Shown: positions 37,865 through 41,311, numbered from the stretch's first letter. The stretch is DNA of 64,000 bases from Candidatus Berkelbacteria bacterium RIFCSPLOWO2_01_FULL_50_28 (GCA_001774395.1 MEZX01000002.1:481524-545523); one strand, 5' to 3'. Notes: a model not told the origin generated them from the letters alone. Program-made: numbers and translations.

Positions 37865-38034
37865 CGGCCAGTTCTCGTGCCTTGCGATCGAGCAAGTGGG
37901 TTATTCATTTCATAATTACCTTCTCAAATCCACCCTCCCGTAGTTTCGATGCGTTGTTTGTTCCTTCTCCTTGAATCATCAAATTAATTTCGATATAAAA
38001 CACTTAGTAAAGTGAACCTTCAGGAGAGTAGAGA

Positions 38035-38802
38035 ATGAATCCGTACATTGGTATTACCGACTTCACGACTATCGGTCAGGTTAGGGAGATGATCAAACTG
38101 TTCAGATCGAATCAGCTGAGCGGTTTGAATCGGATGCTCCACGTTGGTGTGATGATGAGCTACAAGACACTCCACGGTATCCCAAGCAAGTGGCAAGCTG
38201 CTTTTCCCGCCAAGGAGAATATCGCCGCCATCTTTGGCCCGTCAATGGCCTATAACTGCCTGCACTACGCGGACTACGACAACAATCCCGATCTCTGGAA
38301 AAGCCTGGACAAGGCAATCTCCTTCGGGGGCTTGTACATCGACGCGCTGCAACTCGACATGGTCTGGCCCGATCCCGGACAGGTCGCGAACGGTGTTGAT
38401 CTGTGCCGCAAGCCCATCGAAGTCATTCTCCAGATCGGCAAGAACGCTCTGGATGAAGTGGACAATGACCCGCGCGCAGTGGTCGGGAAACTGGCCGATT
38501 ACGAAGGCGTGATTCATCGCGTCCTGCTGGACAAATCCATGGGAAAAGGTCTTGGCATGGATGCCGGTGCTCTCATCCCATTTGCTCGAGCGATAAGAGA
38601 AAGATTTCCGACACTCGGCATCGGAGCCGCGGGCGGGCTTGGACCGGAAACGATTCACCTGGTCGAGCCGCTCGTTCGAGAGTTCCCCGACTTGAGTATT
38701 GACGCTCAGGGGAGACTCCGCCCAAGTGGGAATGCTCTCGATCCGATCGACTGGAAGATGGCTGGGACCTATCTCACCAAGGCTCAACAGATCTTCGCCT
38801 GA
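38035..38802 (+). CDS. TrpF-like (phosphoribosylanthranilate isomerase family) TIM-barrel protein. It is an orphan and is GC-rich.
   Basis: The N-terminal IGITDF, LLDKSMGKGLGMDAGAL...LGIGAAGGLGPE and C-terminal DAQGRLRPSGNALDP...KAQQ blocks align with PRAI motifs. A hairpin followed by a T-run lies at 38813-38848. Confidence 0.45.
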   Translation: MNPYIGITDFTTIGQVREMIKLFRSNQLSGLNRMLHVGVMMSYKTLHGIPSKWQAAFPAKENIAAIFGPSMAYNCLHYADYDNNPDLWKSLDKAISFGGLYIDALQLDMVWPDPGQVANGVDLCRKPIEVILQIGKNALDEVDNDPRAVVGKLADYEGVIHRVLLDKSMGKGLGMDAGALIPFARAIRERFPTLGIGAAGGLGPETIHLVEPLVREFPDLSIDAQGRLRPSGNALDPIDWKMAGTYLTKAQQIFA

Positions 38803-38926
38803 CGAGCCGCGAGTCCACCGCCCTACTTCTGCGGGAGTAGGGCCCTTTTCTTGCAAGACTTACTGCTTCTTGCTATTCCACATTTATCTTTCTATTGAAA
38901 ATCCCCTCTCCGGTGAGCGAGAGGGG

Positions 38927-39943
38927 TTAGATTCGGGGGTTATCCGCGCGGGCTTTCCCGTAGACGCCTCGGAGCTGGGGAGGCATCTGCGCCTCAACCT
39001 GAAGGGCGTACCCTTTGATACCTTGATACAGTGCATCGTTATGCGCCTTACCGGCGCAGTGAAGGGCCATTCGCAGATGGCGAAGCTTCTTACGCGGGAT
39101 GTACAGATCACCATCAATGATATGTACCCCGGGAAACCGGAGCGGTACGCCGTTGCGGTTTCCGTTACGAATCGCGACAGTTTTTCGTTCGTTCACCTTA
39201 AAGCCGCTTTTCTCTATGATCCGCCGAATCGCTGAATAAACCGGTCTGTCAACTTCATCATTTTCCCAAGAGAAAACAATGTTATCGACAAACCGTGTCA
39301 CCACGCCACCGACGTTAGAGGCAAGATGCTCCAATCGGGCATCCATCCTTTGGCAGGCGAAGTTGAACAAGGCCGGAGAAGTTGGGGCTCCTTGAGGAAG
39401 CACTAACTTATAGTGAGGAAGTACCTCCTTATAGTCAGAATATATATCCACTAAATCACTGACGATTTCTAGAACAGCCAACTCCATCGGCAAGATATCC
39501 CATGGTTGCTTCCTCTGGCTGCACCATCTTTCGATAACCTCACCATTCGACGTCGTGTAATGGTGGTGGTAAGTCTGGATAAAACTACGGGTGAAGCTGG
39601 CTTGGTTGTAGGCATCTTTCAGGTCGAATCCAACCATGGAGCGAGCTTTACGATGCGGGAAAGCGTTTGACTCGATACCTCGCCCCGCCACACAACCGTG
39701 GGCAATGGGCGAGACGGGAAGACAGCTGAAGTATCTTTTCAGGATGGCTTGTTGGATTGTCACCAGCGGTTCATGGGGGACGTGGATGATTCGTGTTCCA
39801 CCCCCGCTCTTTGGTTGAGCGTAAGAGCCGTAAAACGCAGCGGCTCCGTATTCTAGCACCAAGAACAGCTGGTCAGGAGGCAGGTCGAGACGTCGCGCCA
39901 GCTTGCGGCCGGCGGCGTATTGGCGACCGGTCAAAGTAGGCAT
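38927..39943 (-). CDS. Stand-alone reverse transcriptase of 338 aa, of retron / defence-associated type.
   Basis: RT motifs 1-2 PKSGGGTRIIHVPHEPLVTIQQAIL...SPIAHGCVAGRGIESNA, motif A GFDLKDAY, motif B' LPQGAPTSPALFNFAC, motif C RFVDNIVFS, and KTVAI...LRFPGVHIIDG. There is no maturase/En domain. AAGGAGA RBS. A hairpin followed by a U-run lies at 38878-38915. Confidence 0.8.
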   Translation of the reverse strand: MPTLTGRQYAAGRKLARRLDLPPDQLFLVLEYGAAAFYGSYAQPKSGGGTRIIHVPHEPLVTIQQAILKRYFSCLPVSPIAHGCVAGRGIESNAFPHRKARSMVGFDLKDAYNQASFTRSFIQTYHHHYTTSNGEVIERWCSQRKQPWDILPMELAVLEIVSDLVDIYSDYKEVLPHYKLVLPQGAPTSPALFNFACQRMDARLEHLASNVGGVVTRFVDNIVFSWENDEVDRPVYSAIRRIIEKSGFKVNERKTVAIRNGNRNGVPLRFPGVHIIDGDLYIPRKKLRHLRMALHCAGKAHNDALYQGIKGYALQVEAQMPPQLRGVYGKARADNPRI

Positions 39944-39959
39944 AGTGCGTCTCCTTGAT

Positions 39960-40230
39960 TTGTTAAGGTGGGGGCCACTCGACCCCCGGACTGGCTACTC
40001 GGCTTCAAGCGAGTCGGCAGGACCGCCGCGCGCAATGACATGTACTGTTCTCTCGTCAGACTTCTGACAAGCGAGGCGCGTGTGAAGGCTACTTATCACG
40101 TTTAGCTCGGCTTTCTTCTGAGGCCAAACATTACGCGTGACAGTAATTCCTTAACCGTTTGCCTATATCTAGCCAGGCTACCAGCAAACTACCAGAGGAA
40201 AGATTAATTATCAATATATTATTGGACAAG
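39960..40230 (-). ncRNA. Candidate structured ncRNA upstream of the RT gene, a possible retron msr/msd- or DRT-type template RNA.
   Basis: ~330 bp with no ORF. On the minus strand it contains several hairpins: GGGGG-N8-CCCCC, ACTCG-N8-CGAGT, GTCAGAAGTCTGAC, a CGCGC...GCGCG outer stem, and a CTGGCTA/TAGCCAG terminal inverted repeat. Confidence 0.35.
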
Positions 40231-40282
40231 TCATTTTCTGGTCCACTTCTCAAATTCGCCCTCTCGTAGTACGCTAATATCA

Positions 40283-41311
40283 ATGGCAGAGGGGCAGATT
40301 GTTGTAGTAGACGAGGGTAAGATGCTGGAACGAATTCTTGAATTCCCCAGCCAGTTGGAGCAGTCCTGGGCCGATTTGTGGACGAAAGAGCTCCCCCTGG
40401 ACCCGACTACGATTCACCAGGTGATAATCTGCGGCATGGGAGGATCTGGCATTGCTGGGGTAATTGCGAAAAGCCTTTTTCAGGATTCGGCCACGATTCC
40501 TATTGCCTTCTGGCATGACTACGGTTTACCGATGTACGCTGGGCCTAACACCCTGGTGCTGGCGGTCAGCGACTCTGGTGATACGGAAGAAACCTTAGAT
40601 TCCTTAAGAAAAGCGTTCGAACGAAAATGTCAGATTGTGGTGATTTCTCGCGGCGGCAAAGACAAAGAAGTGGCCCAGAATAACAACATTCAGTTCGTCG
40701 AGGTAAAAATAGATGCCCCTCCCCGAGCGGCTCTTGGTTACCTTTTGGGCTCGGTTCTCGCCGTCTTGACGAAAGCTAAGCTAATTAATCTTACTGAACA
40801 AGCTTACTTTCTGGCTTTAGGAGAGCTGAAGAATGCCATTTCCCAAAAAACTTTTCCCGCCAAGGCGGAAGAGCTAAGTATTAGTCTGAATAATAAGGTG
40901 CCGCTTATTTTAGCATCTGAGCCGTTAAGCGGTGTCGCCAAGAGGTGGCAAAATCAGTTCAACGAAAACTCGAAAACATTTGCCGTCTTTCAGGAGCTGC
41001 CAGAGGCGTGTCATAACGTGATCCAAGGGTTAGATTTCGCCATTGACGAGAAGATAATCGTGTTGAATCTGGTTTCAAATTACGGCTTTTCACGCAATGT
41101 TGCTCGCGGCAAGATCTTGCAACAACTCTTTTCCACCAAGGAGATTCCGTTTGTACCGCTCACAATACGGTCCGGTTCGGCGCTGGCCGAGCAGTTCTTG
41201 TTCAGCCATTTCGGCGATTTGCTTTCCTACTATCTAGCGGGCGTTAACGGTGTCGATCCAACTCCCGTGGAAGATATCGACAAGTTCAAGGAAGGATTAA
41301 TGAAGTTGTAA
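40283..41311 (+). CDS. pgi: Bifunctional phosphoglucose/phosphomannose isomerase (SIS domain, archaeal type).
   Basis: ICGMGGSGIAG...AVSDSGDTEE. An alternative start is MLERIL at 40320, which has a GAGGG RBS. Confidence 0.8.
   Translation: MAEGQIVVVDEGKMLERILEFPSQLEQSWADLWTKELPLDPTTIHQVIICGMGGSGIAGVIAKSLFQDSATIPIAFWHDYGLPMYAGPNTLVLAVSDSGDTEETLDSLRKAFERKCQIVVISRGGKDKEVAQNNNIQFVEVKIDAPPRAALGYLLGSVLAVLTKAKLINLTEQAYFLALGELKNAISQKTFPAKAEELSISLNNKVPLILASEPLSGVAKRWQNQFNENSKTFAVFQELPEACHNVIQGLDFAIDEKIIVLNLVSNYGFSRNVARGKILQQLFSTKEIPFVPLTIRSGSALAEQFLFSHFGDLLSYYLAGVNGVDPTPVEDIDKFKEGLMKL

What the first reader, a model, noticed from the sequence alone, without database searches (positions are those of the whole stretch)
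37900..40320. GC-rich island next to tRNA genes carries a compact stand-alone reverse transcriptase and a ~330 bp structured leader: candidate retron or DRT-like system
Island contents. The minus-strand ORF 38927..39943 encodes a 338 aa RT. It has all core RT motifs (PKSGGGTRIIHVP, GFDLKDAY, LPQGAPTSPALFN, KTVAI...FPGVHI) but no maturase, endonuclease or other fused domain. Immediately upstream on the same strand is a ~330 bp ORF-free stretch packed with stable hairpins. RNA-templated stand-alone RT systems of the retron (msr/msd) and DRT2/DRT9 type have this layout. The locus (TrpF-like gene plus RT) is visibly GC-richer than the flanking tsaC and pgi genes. It is bracketed by tRNA-Leu and tRNA-Ala on one side and by convergent terminators on the other, which is consistent with horizontal acquisition.
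What makes it unusual. Motif C reads FVDN rather than Y/FxDD, so the second catalytic Asp is replaced by Asn. The retron 'VTG' position reads FPGVH. No canonical co-directional effector gene is present, so the RT either works alone (as in DRT2/DRT9) or pairs with the convergent TrpF-like enzyme.
Basis: partly seen in the sequence, partly recalled or inferred. Interest (0 to 1): 0.8.

Follow-up and report, generated by a model that had tools for sequence, protein, structure and literature searches.

The report
Effector-less retron-like element, YxDN reverse transcriptase
A tiny-genome groundwater bacterium (Candidatus Berkelbacteria) carries a retron-like pair of a structured non-coding RNA and a compact reverse transcriptase; the enzyme belongs to a previously unclassified, CPR-restricted clade that has Asn in place of the second catalytic Asp and has no partner toxin gene.

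Summary
ORF 38927..39943(-) encodes a 338-aa reverse transcriptase (RT) that is retron-type by sequence and by predicted fold. The 339-nt leader holds a retron-style ncRNA.

The ncRNA has these parts:
- an extended -10 promoter;
- a 7-bp a1/a2 closing stem (40176-40170 with 39997-39991);
- an invariant G (40169) directly 3' of a1;
- a conserved hairpin (40071-40052);
- a variable hairpin just 5' of a2.

In 12 homologous loci the a1/a2 arms differ in sequence but always pair. Motif C (FVDN) is not a lesion. All 43 Y-x-D-N sequences fall in one clade of 53 cluster representatives. The loci with organism names are all CPR bacteria. RT dN/dS is 0.08.

No effector gene recurs next to the RT. Neighbours are housekeeping genes (pgi-eno-gpmI here, dnaX/cysS in a sister branch). 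The TrpF-like gene is not part of the unit. Against a sister genome, the ncRNA body plus RT has dS 2.7 while the flanks have 0.3, so it was replaced as a cassette.

It fits none of the 13 retron types, nor DRT2/9, DGR or group II introns. Best reading: a new effector-less, YxDN variant of a retron. Whether it makes msDNA, and what it does for the cell, are both untested.

The parts
40185..40214 (-). Promoter-like element: -35 TTGATA (40214-40209), 17-nt spacer, extended -10 TGG-TAGTTT (40194-40186). The predicted start is 1-4 nt before a1.
   Evidence: Read from the sequence. A TGn-TAnnnT extended -10 lies 6-14 nt upstream of a1 in most homologous loci. The generic scan instead picked two weaker sites further upstream, at 40245-40207. 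No transcript data exist.
39988..40179 (-). Retron-style ncRNA (msr-msd candidate), about 190 nt, running from a1 to a2.
   Evidence: The MFE fold closes with the a1/a2 stem; z = -2.1. The architecture is conserved in 13 close-subfamily loci. An analogous arrangement occurs in 10 of 14 loci of the distant subfamily.
40170..40176 (-). a1 arm, CUGGCUA.
   Evidence: It pairs with a2. The seven inner pairs are paired in 12 of 12 loci, with up to 5 pair types per position. 0 of 500 shuffles reach the observed covariation. Slid controls pair 28-52% of cells against 85% observed.
40169..40169 (-). Invariant G immediately 3' of a1: the candidate 2'-OH priming (branching) guanosine.
   Evidence: The column is invariant in alignment A5 within the motif CUA-G. 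Its position matches the retron priming G described in PMC6868368. Priming itself was not tested.
40052..40071 (-). Conserved hairpin CUUGUCAGA-AG-UCUGACGAG.
   Evidence: It is present 48-69 nt upstream of a2 in 8 loci and in variant form in 4 more. Compensatory changes: UA/CG at columns 33-45 and AU/GC at columns 35-43. RNAalifold recovers it independently.
39998..40051 (-). Variable segment with its own hairpin, ending in GAG just 5' of a2: the candidate msd template (about 50-55 nt).
   Evidence: The length is constant (48-69 nt) while the sequence is variable and self-complementary in every locus. Its role as template is inferred by analogy with retrons.
39991..39997 (-). a2 arm, UAGCCAG.
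   Evidence: It is complementary to a1 and preceded by (G/A)AG in most of the 12 aligned loci. It lies 54-103 nt upstream of the RT start in 11 of the 12.
39969..39988 (-). GC-rich hairpin between a2 and the ribosome-binding site.
   Evidence: A hairpin of different sequence occupies this position in the five loci read for it: window, L001, L002, L006, L007. No U-tract follows it, so it is not a classical terminator.
38927..39943 (-). RT gene, 338 aa. RBS AAGGAG at 39956-39951. Region X is NAFPH (aa 93-97). Motif A has D107. Motif C is FVDN (aa 218-221, nt 39292-39281). Region Y is FPG (aa 270-272).
38903..38926 (-). Terminator-like hairpin directly after the RT stop codon.
   Evidence: 8 pairs, 6 of them GC, followed by a T-rich tail.

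Best explanation
This is a retron-type retroelement made of two parts only: a structured ncRNA and its RT.

Proposed mechanism:
- A promoter about 10 nt upstream of a1 drives a transcript that contains the ncRNA followed by the RT mRNA.
- The ncRNA ends pair (a1 40176-40170 with a2 39997-39991). This places the invariant G40169 next to the 3' end of the template.
- The RT recognises the ncRNA, probably through the conserved hairpin 40071-40052.
- By analogy with retrons, the RT primes on the 2'-OH of that G and copies the roughly 50-nt variable hairpin upstream of a2 into a short RT-bound msDNA.

The RT belongs to a clade found only in CPR/Patescibacteria, in which motif C is Y-x-D-N rather than Y-A-D-D. 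I infer that the Asn form is catalytically competent, perhaps with altered metal use or processivity.

No effector is encoded beside it. The element acts alone or with factors encoded elsewhere. Its cellular role (defence or a domesticated function) is open.

Shown here: retron-type RT, ncRNA architecture with covariation, clade-wide YxDN, purifying selection, absence of a recurrent neighbour, cassette replacement. Inferred: 2'-OH priming, template extent, catalytic competence, role.
For: RT identity:
- Every PDB sequence hit at E <= 1e-3 is a retron RT; Ec86 is best at 1e-17.
- The AF2 model has pLDDT 83.6. Its top 18 Foldseek PDB hits are retron RTs with TM about 0.7. Group II, DRT9, DGR and DRT2 follow.
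- All top PADLOC hits are retron RT models.
- NAxxH is present, and the G of VTG is kept.

ncRNA:
- In 12 loci the a1/a2 arms pair despite different sequences. 0/500 shuffles reach the observed covariation, and slid controls collapse.
- Exactly one TAG-anchored stem of 7 bp or more occurs in 11 of 13 loci, against a 10-25% chance per locus. The other two have stems with wobbles or one mismatch.
- The G after a1 is invariant.
- The conserved hairpin shows compensatory changes.
- An analogous GCUC|G...G|GAGC arrangement occurs in the distant subfamily.

YxDN:
- All 43 DN sequences fall in one NJ clade of 53. The other ten are DD in at least 4, DE in 4, and 1 that the motif pattern missed (read by eye as GDD).
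- The motif A Asp and the first motif C Asp are kept throughout the close relatives I aligned or read (invariant columns in A1 and A3; sequences). The aromatic residue that acts as the sugar-selecting steric gate in HIV RT (DAY/DAF) is likewise kept in those I read.
- dN/dS is 0.076 between two alleles.
- A natural YVDN occurs in intact nematode belpaovirus RTs (PMC9094657, PMC554778).

Autonomy of the two-part unit:
- The unit recurs with unrelated neighbours.
- Between the window and L001 the ncRNA body plus RT is 62-75% identical, while the flanks are 88-97%. dS is 2.66 against 0.27-0.30.
Against: - The YADD tetrad is a hallmark of retron RTs; the review read here names only a second-position variant (YCDD) (PMC6868368). 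Mutating either Asp inactivates retroviral RTs (statement in PMC554778).
- Retrons are defined today as tripartite, and no effector is present.
- The RT scores far below ordinary retron RTs on every type model: 158 bits on RT_XIII, against 288-517 bits for four canonical relatives.
- The G context is AGA here, not the classical AGC.
- The a1/a2 sites were located by searching for complementarity, so the pair counts lean towards the structure. Anchors, position and the shuffle control mitigate this.
- No expression or cDNA data exist.
Confidence: 0.65

Rival explanations
1. Pseudo-enzyme. The D-to-N change abolishes polymerisation. The RT-like protein is kept as a specific RNA-binding partner of the ncRNA (a regulatory or scaffolding RNP), and no cDNA is made.
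For: - N replaces a residue whose mutation inactivates HIV-1 and MoMLV RT (PMC554778).
- The second position is relaxed in the clade: DN, DE and DD all occur.
- No effector exists that would need an msDNA antitoxin.
- Type VI retrons show that constitutive msDNA is not obligatory (bioRxiv 10.1101/2025.10.22.683967).
Against: - The other catalytic and substrate-binding residues stay conserved in the close relatives examined, which diverge to below 45% identity: motif A Asp, first motif C Asp, QGxxxSP, the aromatic steric gate and NAxxH.
- dN/dS is 0.08.
- The priming-site geometry (a1/a2 plus the invariant G) is conserved, and it has no obvious use without priming.
- YVDN occurs in intact retroelements.
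Confidence: 0.17
2. A stand-alone RT defence system of the UG/DRT kind (DRT2-like rolling-circle cDNA or DRT9-like homopolymer synthesis) that only resembles a retron.
For: The layout is RT plus upstream ncRNA with no effector, as in DRT2 and DRT9. DRT9 and DRT2 structures do appear in the fold search (ranks 24-30).
Against: - NCBIfam Drt2 scores 28 bits (cutoff 390) and Drt3a 22 bits (cutoff 200).
- No UG/DRT model is among the 25 best PADLOC hits shown (of 51), all of which are retron RT models.
- 18 retron RT structures rank above any DRT.
- The ncRNA has the retron signature, a terminal stem plus a G.
Confidence: 0.06
3. A remnant of a group II intron or a diversity-generating retroelement.
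For: All share the RVT_1 fold. CPR genomes are known to be rich in DGRs (own knowledge).
Against: - TIGR04416 scores 34 bits against a cutoff of 300.
- There is no maturase or endonuclease domain.
- There is no intron RNA or other Rfam hit.
- There is no TR/VR-like copy of any part of 38927-40300 in the 64-kb window, even when A-site mismatches are allowed.
- Motif 4 is QGAPTSP, not DGR-like (own knowledge of DGR motifs).
Confidence: 0.02
4. The leader is merely a promoter and 5'-UTR with fortuitous hairpins, and the RT is a decaying orphan.
For: The single-sequence fold z-scores are moderate: -3.2 for the leader and -2.1 for the ncRNA core.
Against: There is covariation across 12 loci, plus conserved geometry and an invariant G. 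The RT is under strong purifying selection, and the clade is conserved across several CPR lineages.
Confidence: 0.03

Closest known systems
Retrons in general (msr-msd ncRNA plus retron RT), e.g. Retron-Eco1/Ec86
   Same: - The RT fold and sequence are closest to retron RTs.
- Region X (NAxxH) is present, and the conserved G of region Y is kept.
- The ncRNA lies directly upstream on the same strand, with terminal inverted repeats and a G immediately 3' of a1 (UA|G, as in Ec86).
- There is a variable hairpin next to a2.
   Different: - Motif C is YxDN instead of YADD.
- VTG is replaced by (L/F)PG inside a clade-specific NGNRxGxPLRLPGxNI block.
- There is no effector gene.
- HMM scores are roughly half those of ordinary retron RTs.
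- The host is a CPR bacterium.
- The neighbours are core housekeeping genes rather than a prophage or defence island.
Effector-less ('orphan') retrons such as the Retron-Eco5/Ec107-like clade (Mestre et al. 2020, PMC7736814)
   Same: Only RT plus ncRNA, with no recurrent accessory gene. The same open question applies: trans effectors or a different function.
   Different: - The window RT scores only 103 bits on the Ec107-like model.
- Ec107 keeps DD (YCDD).
- Different phyla.
Type XIII retrons (best PADLOC model)
   Same: Best-scoring retron RT model (158 bits). Type XIII is also reported as partly vertically inherited.
   Different: - Type XIII RTs are about 470-530 aa with an N-terminal extension.
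- They are linked to a wHTH-SWIM protein and a HEAT/ARM protein. Neither is present here.
- True relatives score 288-517 bits.
Belpaoviridae (nematode Cer7-13, Atlas virus) RTs
   Same: A natural YVDN in motif C of otherwise intact RTs.
   Different: These are eukaryotic LTR retroelements. They are unrelated in lineage, architecture and priming.
DRT2 / DRT9 (UG-class stand-alone RT plus ncRNA defence systems)
   Same: A two-component RT plus ncRNA layout without an effector.
   Different: A different RT class by HMM and fold rank. Their ncRNAs lack the a1/a2 plus priming-G arrangement (own knowledge).

Membership tests
Retron | RT belongs to the retron RT lineage by sequence and fold | tested here: met
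   PDB sequence hits are exclusively retron RTs. The top 18 Foldseek hits are retron RTs. The PADLOC hits shown (best 25 of 51) are all retron RT models. The match is weak: scores are about half those of canonical members, and every NCBIfam retron model is below its cutoff.
Retron | Region X with NAxxH between RT2 and RT3 | tested here: met
   NAFPH at aa 93-97. H97 is invariant, and N93 and A94 are invariant in the three closest members. Criterion taken from PMC7736814.
Retron | Region Y with the VTG triplet in RT7 (G the most conserved) | tested here: inconclusive
   FPG here; LPG, LLG, VPG, LSG and others in relatives. Only the G (G272) is kept.
Retron | YADD catalytic tetrad (the variant named in the review read here changes only the second position, e.g. 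YCDD) | tested here: not met
   FVDN here. 43 of 53 clade members have Y/F-x-D-N. Criterion taken from PMC6868368.
Retron | ncRNA adjacent to the RT whose 5' and 3' ends pair (a1/a2) | tested here: met
   A stem of 7-12 bp in 13 loci, with compensatory changes. 0/500 shuffles reach the observed covariation.
Retron | Priming guanosine at the 3' end of a1 (classically in an AGC context) | tested here: met
   An invariant G follows CUA in 12 of 12 aligned loci. The context is AG(A/C/U), and AGA in the window. The chemistry was not tested.
Retron | Production of branched msDNA (2'-5' RNA-DNA link) | not testable with these tools
   Needs expression and PAGE, debranching or cDNA-seq.
Retron | Cognate effector gene or domain (tripartite system; basis of types I-XIII) | tested here: not met
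   No recurrent non-housekeeping neighbour among about 29 distinct loci. No PADLOC hit for neighbours. The RT has no extra domain.
Retron type XIII | RT with an N-terminal extension, plus a wHTH-SWIM protein and a HEAT/ARM protein | tested here: not met
   The RT is 338 aa and matches only part of the 469-position model; its best stretch covers model positions 269-408, and the close relative P0121 aligns from about position 113. No such neighbours are present.
DRT2 / DRT3 (UG RTs) | Match to the Drt2 or Drt3 equivalog models | tested here: not met
   28 bits against 390, and 22 bits against 200.
Group II intron RT | RT-maturase model match, X/En domains, intron RNA domains | tested here: not met
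   TIGR04416 scores 34 bits against 300. Only RVT_1 is found. No Rfam intron hit.
Diversity-generating retroelement | Template repeat and variable repeat pair near the RT | tested here: not met
   No A-tolerant or plain repeat of 38927-40300 elsewhere in the window. Targets outside the 64 kb were not searched.

The most novel reading that the evidence does not exclude
A deep RT lineage, found so far only in CPR bacteria, has been kept for long periods beside core genes (pgi-eno-gpmI, dnaX/cysS) in genomes below 1 Mb. It works as a self-sufficient RT-ncRNA machine with a naturally rewired Y-x-D-N active site. Two versions of this reading remain open. It could be an effector-free immune sensor-executor. 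Or it could be a domesticated housekeeping RNP whose short cDNA, or the RNP itself, serves a cellular function. In either case it would be the first retron-like system whose catalysis does not depend on the second motif C aspartate.
Probability: 0.25. Interest if true: 0.85.

Novelty: new variant of a known kind. Interest (0 to 1): 0.62.

Why it matters
- **Definition of a retron.** Current definitions rest on a YADD RT plus an effector. This clade keeps the ncRNA priming architecture and drops both. It therefore tests which features are essential.
- **RT enzymology.** A naturally conserved Asp-to-Asn change at a site that kills retroviral RTs is a ready-made experiment: N221D, metal dependence, processivity. 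It may also give compact (about 300-340 aa) RTs with unusual properties for retron-based editing.
- **CPR biology.** CPR bacteria have minimal genomes and few known defence systems. An RT-ncRNA module that they retain and also exchange as alleles points to an unrecognised function in these organisms.

Tried and rejected
- **First genome-contig scan.** With the 3-sequence alignment it found nothing. The second scan, with a C-terminal fragment alignment, found 6 CPR genomes.
- **Rfam at E <= 10.** Only the two tRNAs and noise.
- **Plain MAFFT plus RNAalifold on seven full-length ncRNAs.** The variable 5' parts were misaligned and only the conserved hairpin was recovered. I therefore counted a1/a2 on a composite alignment of anchored segments, which leans towards the structure. 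I added a shuffle control.
- **Generic search for any stem followed by G.** Too noisy.
- **The about 460-aa co-directional gene in the distant subfamily.** It looked like an effector but is cysteinyl-tRNA synthetase, and the upstream gene is dnaX.
- **The TrpF-like gene as partner.** Rejected. It has no Pfam, NCBIfam, PADLOC or PHROG hit, and only a 32-residue, E 0.1 similarity to ribulose-phosphate epimerases.
- **Small ORFs inside the ncRNA** (34-36 aa). Not pursued, because the region is poorly conserved at sequence level.
- **Phage and plasmid collections.** Only RTs at 30% identity or less.
- **NJ bootstrap of the DN clade.** Moderate only: exact recovery in 16 of 50 replicates, mean Jaccard 0.90. 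No ML tree with reference retron clades could be built.
- **Literature.** Searches found no description of retrons in CPR or of YxDN prokaryotic RTs. The library is incomplete.

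
Full report
**What is there**

Pfam finds only RVT_1 (aa 44-272, E 8e-19). The gene is preceded by AAGGAG (39956-39951) and followed by a terminator-like hairpin (38926-38903). It converges on a 255-aa ORF (38035..38802) that ends with its own hairpin.

Upstream of the RT, 339 nt separate it from the divergently transcribed pgi-eno-gpmI genes. This leader has no ORF of 60 aa or more. It folds better than shuffles (z = -3.2) and matches no Rfam family. tRNA-Leu and tRNA-Ala exist but lie 0.5-1.5 kb beyond the region. GC is only patchily raised.

Exact-sequence look-up identifies the host as Candidatus Berkelbacteria bacterium RIFCSPLOWO2_01_FULL_50_28. The contig is 629 kb, and the RT is deposited as a hypothetical protein, OGD61063.1.

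**What kind of RT**

- Against PDB sequences, every hit at E <= 1e-3 is a retron RT: Ec86 at 1e-17, then Ec67, Ec78/Eco7, Eco8, Ec83 and Kva2.
- An AlphaFold model (pLDDT 83.6) has retron RTs as its 18 best Foldseek PDB matches, with TM about 0.7. They rank ahead of group II intron RT, DRT9, DGR, G2L4 and DRT2.
- PADLOC lists only retron RT models. RT_XIII is best at 158 bits, and others score 78-136 bits.
- NCBIfam retron, group II, Drt2 and Drt3a models are all far below their cutoffs.
- As calibration, four ordinary YADD relatives from the homologue search score 288-517 bits on RT_XIII and more than 150 bits on every one of the 25 retron models listed.

The window RT is therefore retron-like but an outlier to all classified types. 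The retron-specific NAxxH is present (NAFPH). The VTG triplet is reduced to its conserved G (FPG) (criteria from PMC7736814).

**FVDN is a clade character, not damage**

The word-indexed search found only three close clusters, at 100, 67 and 44% identity. All three have VDN. An exhaustive HMMER search with their profile gave a graded series of compact proteins of about 280-370 aa. These carry Y/F-x-D-N (ADN, VDN, GDN, FDN, CDN, SDN) and a shared block, NGNRxGxPLRLPGxNI, around region Y.

I built a neighbour-joining tree of 271 RT domains. All 43 DN sequences fall in one clade of 53. The other ten members are DD in at least 4, DE in 4, and 1 that the motif pattern missed (read by eye as GDD). 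Bootstrap support is moderate: exact recovery in 16 of 50 replicates, mean Jaccard 0.90.

Other catalytic features are retained in the close relatives I aligned or read. These are the motif A Asp, the first motif C Asp, QGxxxSP and the aromatic residue after motif A. That aromatic residue corresponds to the sugar-selecting steric gate of HIV RT (DAY/DAF; own knowledge). Between the two closest alleles dN/dS is 0.076.

Retron RTs are described as YADD, and the variant named in that review changes only the second position (PMC6868368). Mutation of either Asp inactivates retroviral RTs, yet nematode belpaoviruses naturally carry YVDN in intact elements (PMC554778, PMC9094657). I infer that the Asn form is active, but this is untested.

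Where an organism name is available, the members are Berkelbacteria (3), Woykebacteria, Paceibacterota, CPR2 and one unnamed MAG. That scan used patterns that include DN, so it is not an unbiased census.

**The leader is a retron-style ncRNA**

I recovered 13 distinct loci of the close subfamily. Each has 300-660 nt of non-coding DNA upstream of the RT, except the Woykebacteria locus, where the gap to the assigned RT start is about 150 nt and that start is probably mis-assigned. All show the same plan:

- an extended -10 element (TGn-TAnnnT) in most loci;
- 6-14 nt later, an arm ending in CUA;
- an invariant G;
- a region of very variable length (33-270 nt);
- a conserved hairpin, CUUGYCRGA-NN-UCYGRCGAG;
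- a 48-69-nt variable, self-complementary segment ending in (G/A)AG;
- an arm starting with UAG that is complementary to the first arm;
- a GC-rich hairpin, then the RBS and the RT.

The arms differ between loci but always pair:

| Locus | a1 | a2 |
|---|---|---|
| window | CUGGCUA | UAGCCAG |
| L002 | GCUUGGCUA | UAGCCAAGC |
| L007 | GUACGUUGACUA | UAGUCGACGUAC |
| L038 | GUCACGACUA | UAGUCGUGAC |

Counted on an anchored composite alignment, the seven inner pairs are paired in 12 of 12 sequences, with up to five pair types per position. 0 of 500 shuffles reach the observed covariation. Sliding the partner drops pairing from 85% to 28-52%.

Because I located the arms by complementarity, I ran a control. 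A TAG-anchored stem of 7 bp or more occurs in 10-25% of shuffled regions, but exactly once in 11 of 13 real ones, always at the same relative place. The remaining two loci have stems with wobbles or one mismatch. RNAalifold on an unanchored alignment independently recovers the conserved hairpin with compensatory changes.

A more distant YADN subfamily shows an analogous GCUC|G ... G|GAGC arrangement spanning 92-125 nt in 10 of 14 loci.

This is the geometry of a retron msr-msd: terminal a1/a2 pairing and a priming G at the end of a1 (PMC6868368). Window coordinates are listed under 'parts'.

**No effector; core-genome setting; cassette replacement**

Across about 29 distinct loci, the only recurrent neighbours are housekeeping genes:

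- pgi/eno/gpmI in the window and in a second Berkelbacteria lineage. There the RT is 46% identical, and eno and gpmI are 42% and 41% identical.
- dnaX upstream and cysS downstream in the distant subfamily, with CysS identities down to 32%.

Nothing nearby matches PADLOC.

The TrpF-like ORF is found only in the window and, truncated, in the sister contig L001. L001 is syntenic with the window from pgi to the middle of that ORF. Its identity is 90-97% in pgi and 88-92% in the TrpF-like gene, but only 62-75% across the ncRNA body and RT. Synonymous divergence is 2.66 (saturated) for the RT, against 0.30 and 0.27 for the flanks.

The promoter, a1 and G, and the last 60 nt of the RT are conserved, so the breakpoints lie inside the unit. 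The simplest reading is replacement of the ncRNA-RT cassette by a divergent allele through recombination, with both alleles under purifying selection. That pattern is typical of conflict loci. The long-term synteny with core genes argues for stable residence. I cannot decide between a defence role and a domesticated one.

**Excluded alternatives**

- No TR/VR-like repeat in the window.
- No intron RNA or maturase domain.
- DRT models fail.
- No close relatives on phages or plasmids.
- Literature searches found no description of retrons in CPR or of YxDN prokaryotic RTs. This is absence of evidence in an incomplete library.

**Verdict**

The DRT2/9, TrpF-partner and tRNA-island parts do not hold.

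Two defining retron features were tested and not met (YADD and an effector). I therefore do not file the element in any retron type. It most likely works like a retron and represents a new, CPR-restricted variant. Confidence in the architecture is high. Confidence in msDNA synthesis by 2'-OH priming is moderate. The cellular role is open.

Noticed in passing
window 37920-37944 and 40246-40270 (+): An imperfect 25-bp direct repeat (22/25: CTTCTCAAATCCACCCTCCCGTAGT and CTTCTCAAATTCGCCCTCTCGTAGT). It brackets exactly the GC-richer 2.3 kb that holds the TrpF-like gene, the RT and the ncRNA. BLAST E = 1.2, so it may be chance. It could also be an att-like scar of an older insertion.
   Followed up: partly
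window 39393-39434: A 21-nt tandem duplication inside the RT gene. It encodes YKEVLPH / YKLVLPQ immediately before the LPQGAPTSP motif. The sister allele in L001 lacks it.
   Followed up: partly
L001 2945-4447, corresponding to a break at window ~38274: Synteny with the window ends in the middle of the TrpF-like gene, which is left as a 147-156-aa C-terminal fragment. Beyond the break L001 carries an AAA-ATPase-like fragment and an ORF with weak, sub-threshold similarity to replication-protein (RP-C / phage O) and MarR-type winged-helix domains. This suggests a different insertion at this spot.
   Followed up: partly
proteins P0135, P0142, P0143, P0147: Just outside the YxDN clade lie proteins with two retron-like RT domains in tandem, both with DD. 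P0143 (1381 aa) also has an N-terminal region with a protein-kinase motif (HRDLKPDN). Their architecture was not analysed.
   Followed up: no
L015-L025, L044 (distant subfamily loci): The RT is held between dnaX (plus a roughly 200-aa gene of unknown identity) and cysS across loci whose CysS proteins are as little as 32% identical. This is an unusually stable housekeeping neighbourhood for an RT.
   Followed up: partly
L017 3886-6225 (-): The dnaX gene next to the RT carries an intein with a LAGLIDADG homing-endonuclease domain.
   Followed up: no
window 38035-38802 (+): The 255-aa 'TrpF-like' ORF is named phosphoribosylanthranilate isomerase in UniRef. It has no Pfam, NCBIfam, PADLOC or PHROG match. 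Its only similarity is a 32-residue stretch (E about 0.1) to the phosphate-binding end of ribulose-phosphate 3-epimerases.
   Followed up: partly
L007 9249-9814 (+): In the second Berkelbacteria lineage, two small co-directional coiled-coil ORFs (94 and 90 aa) follow the RT. They were not seen at other loci.
   Followed up: no
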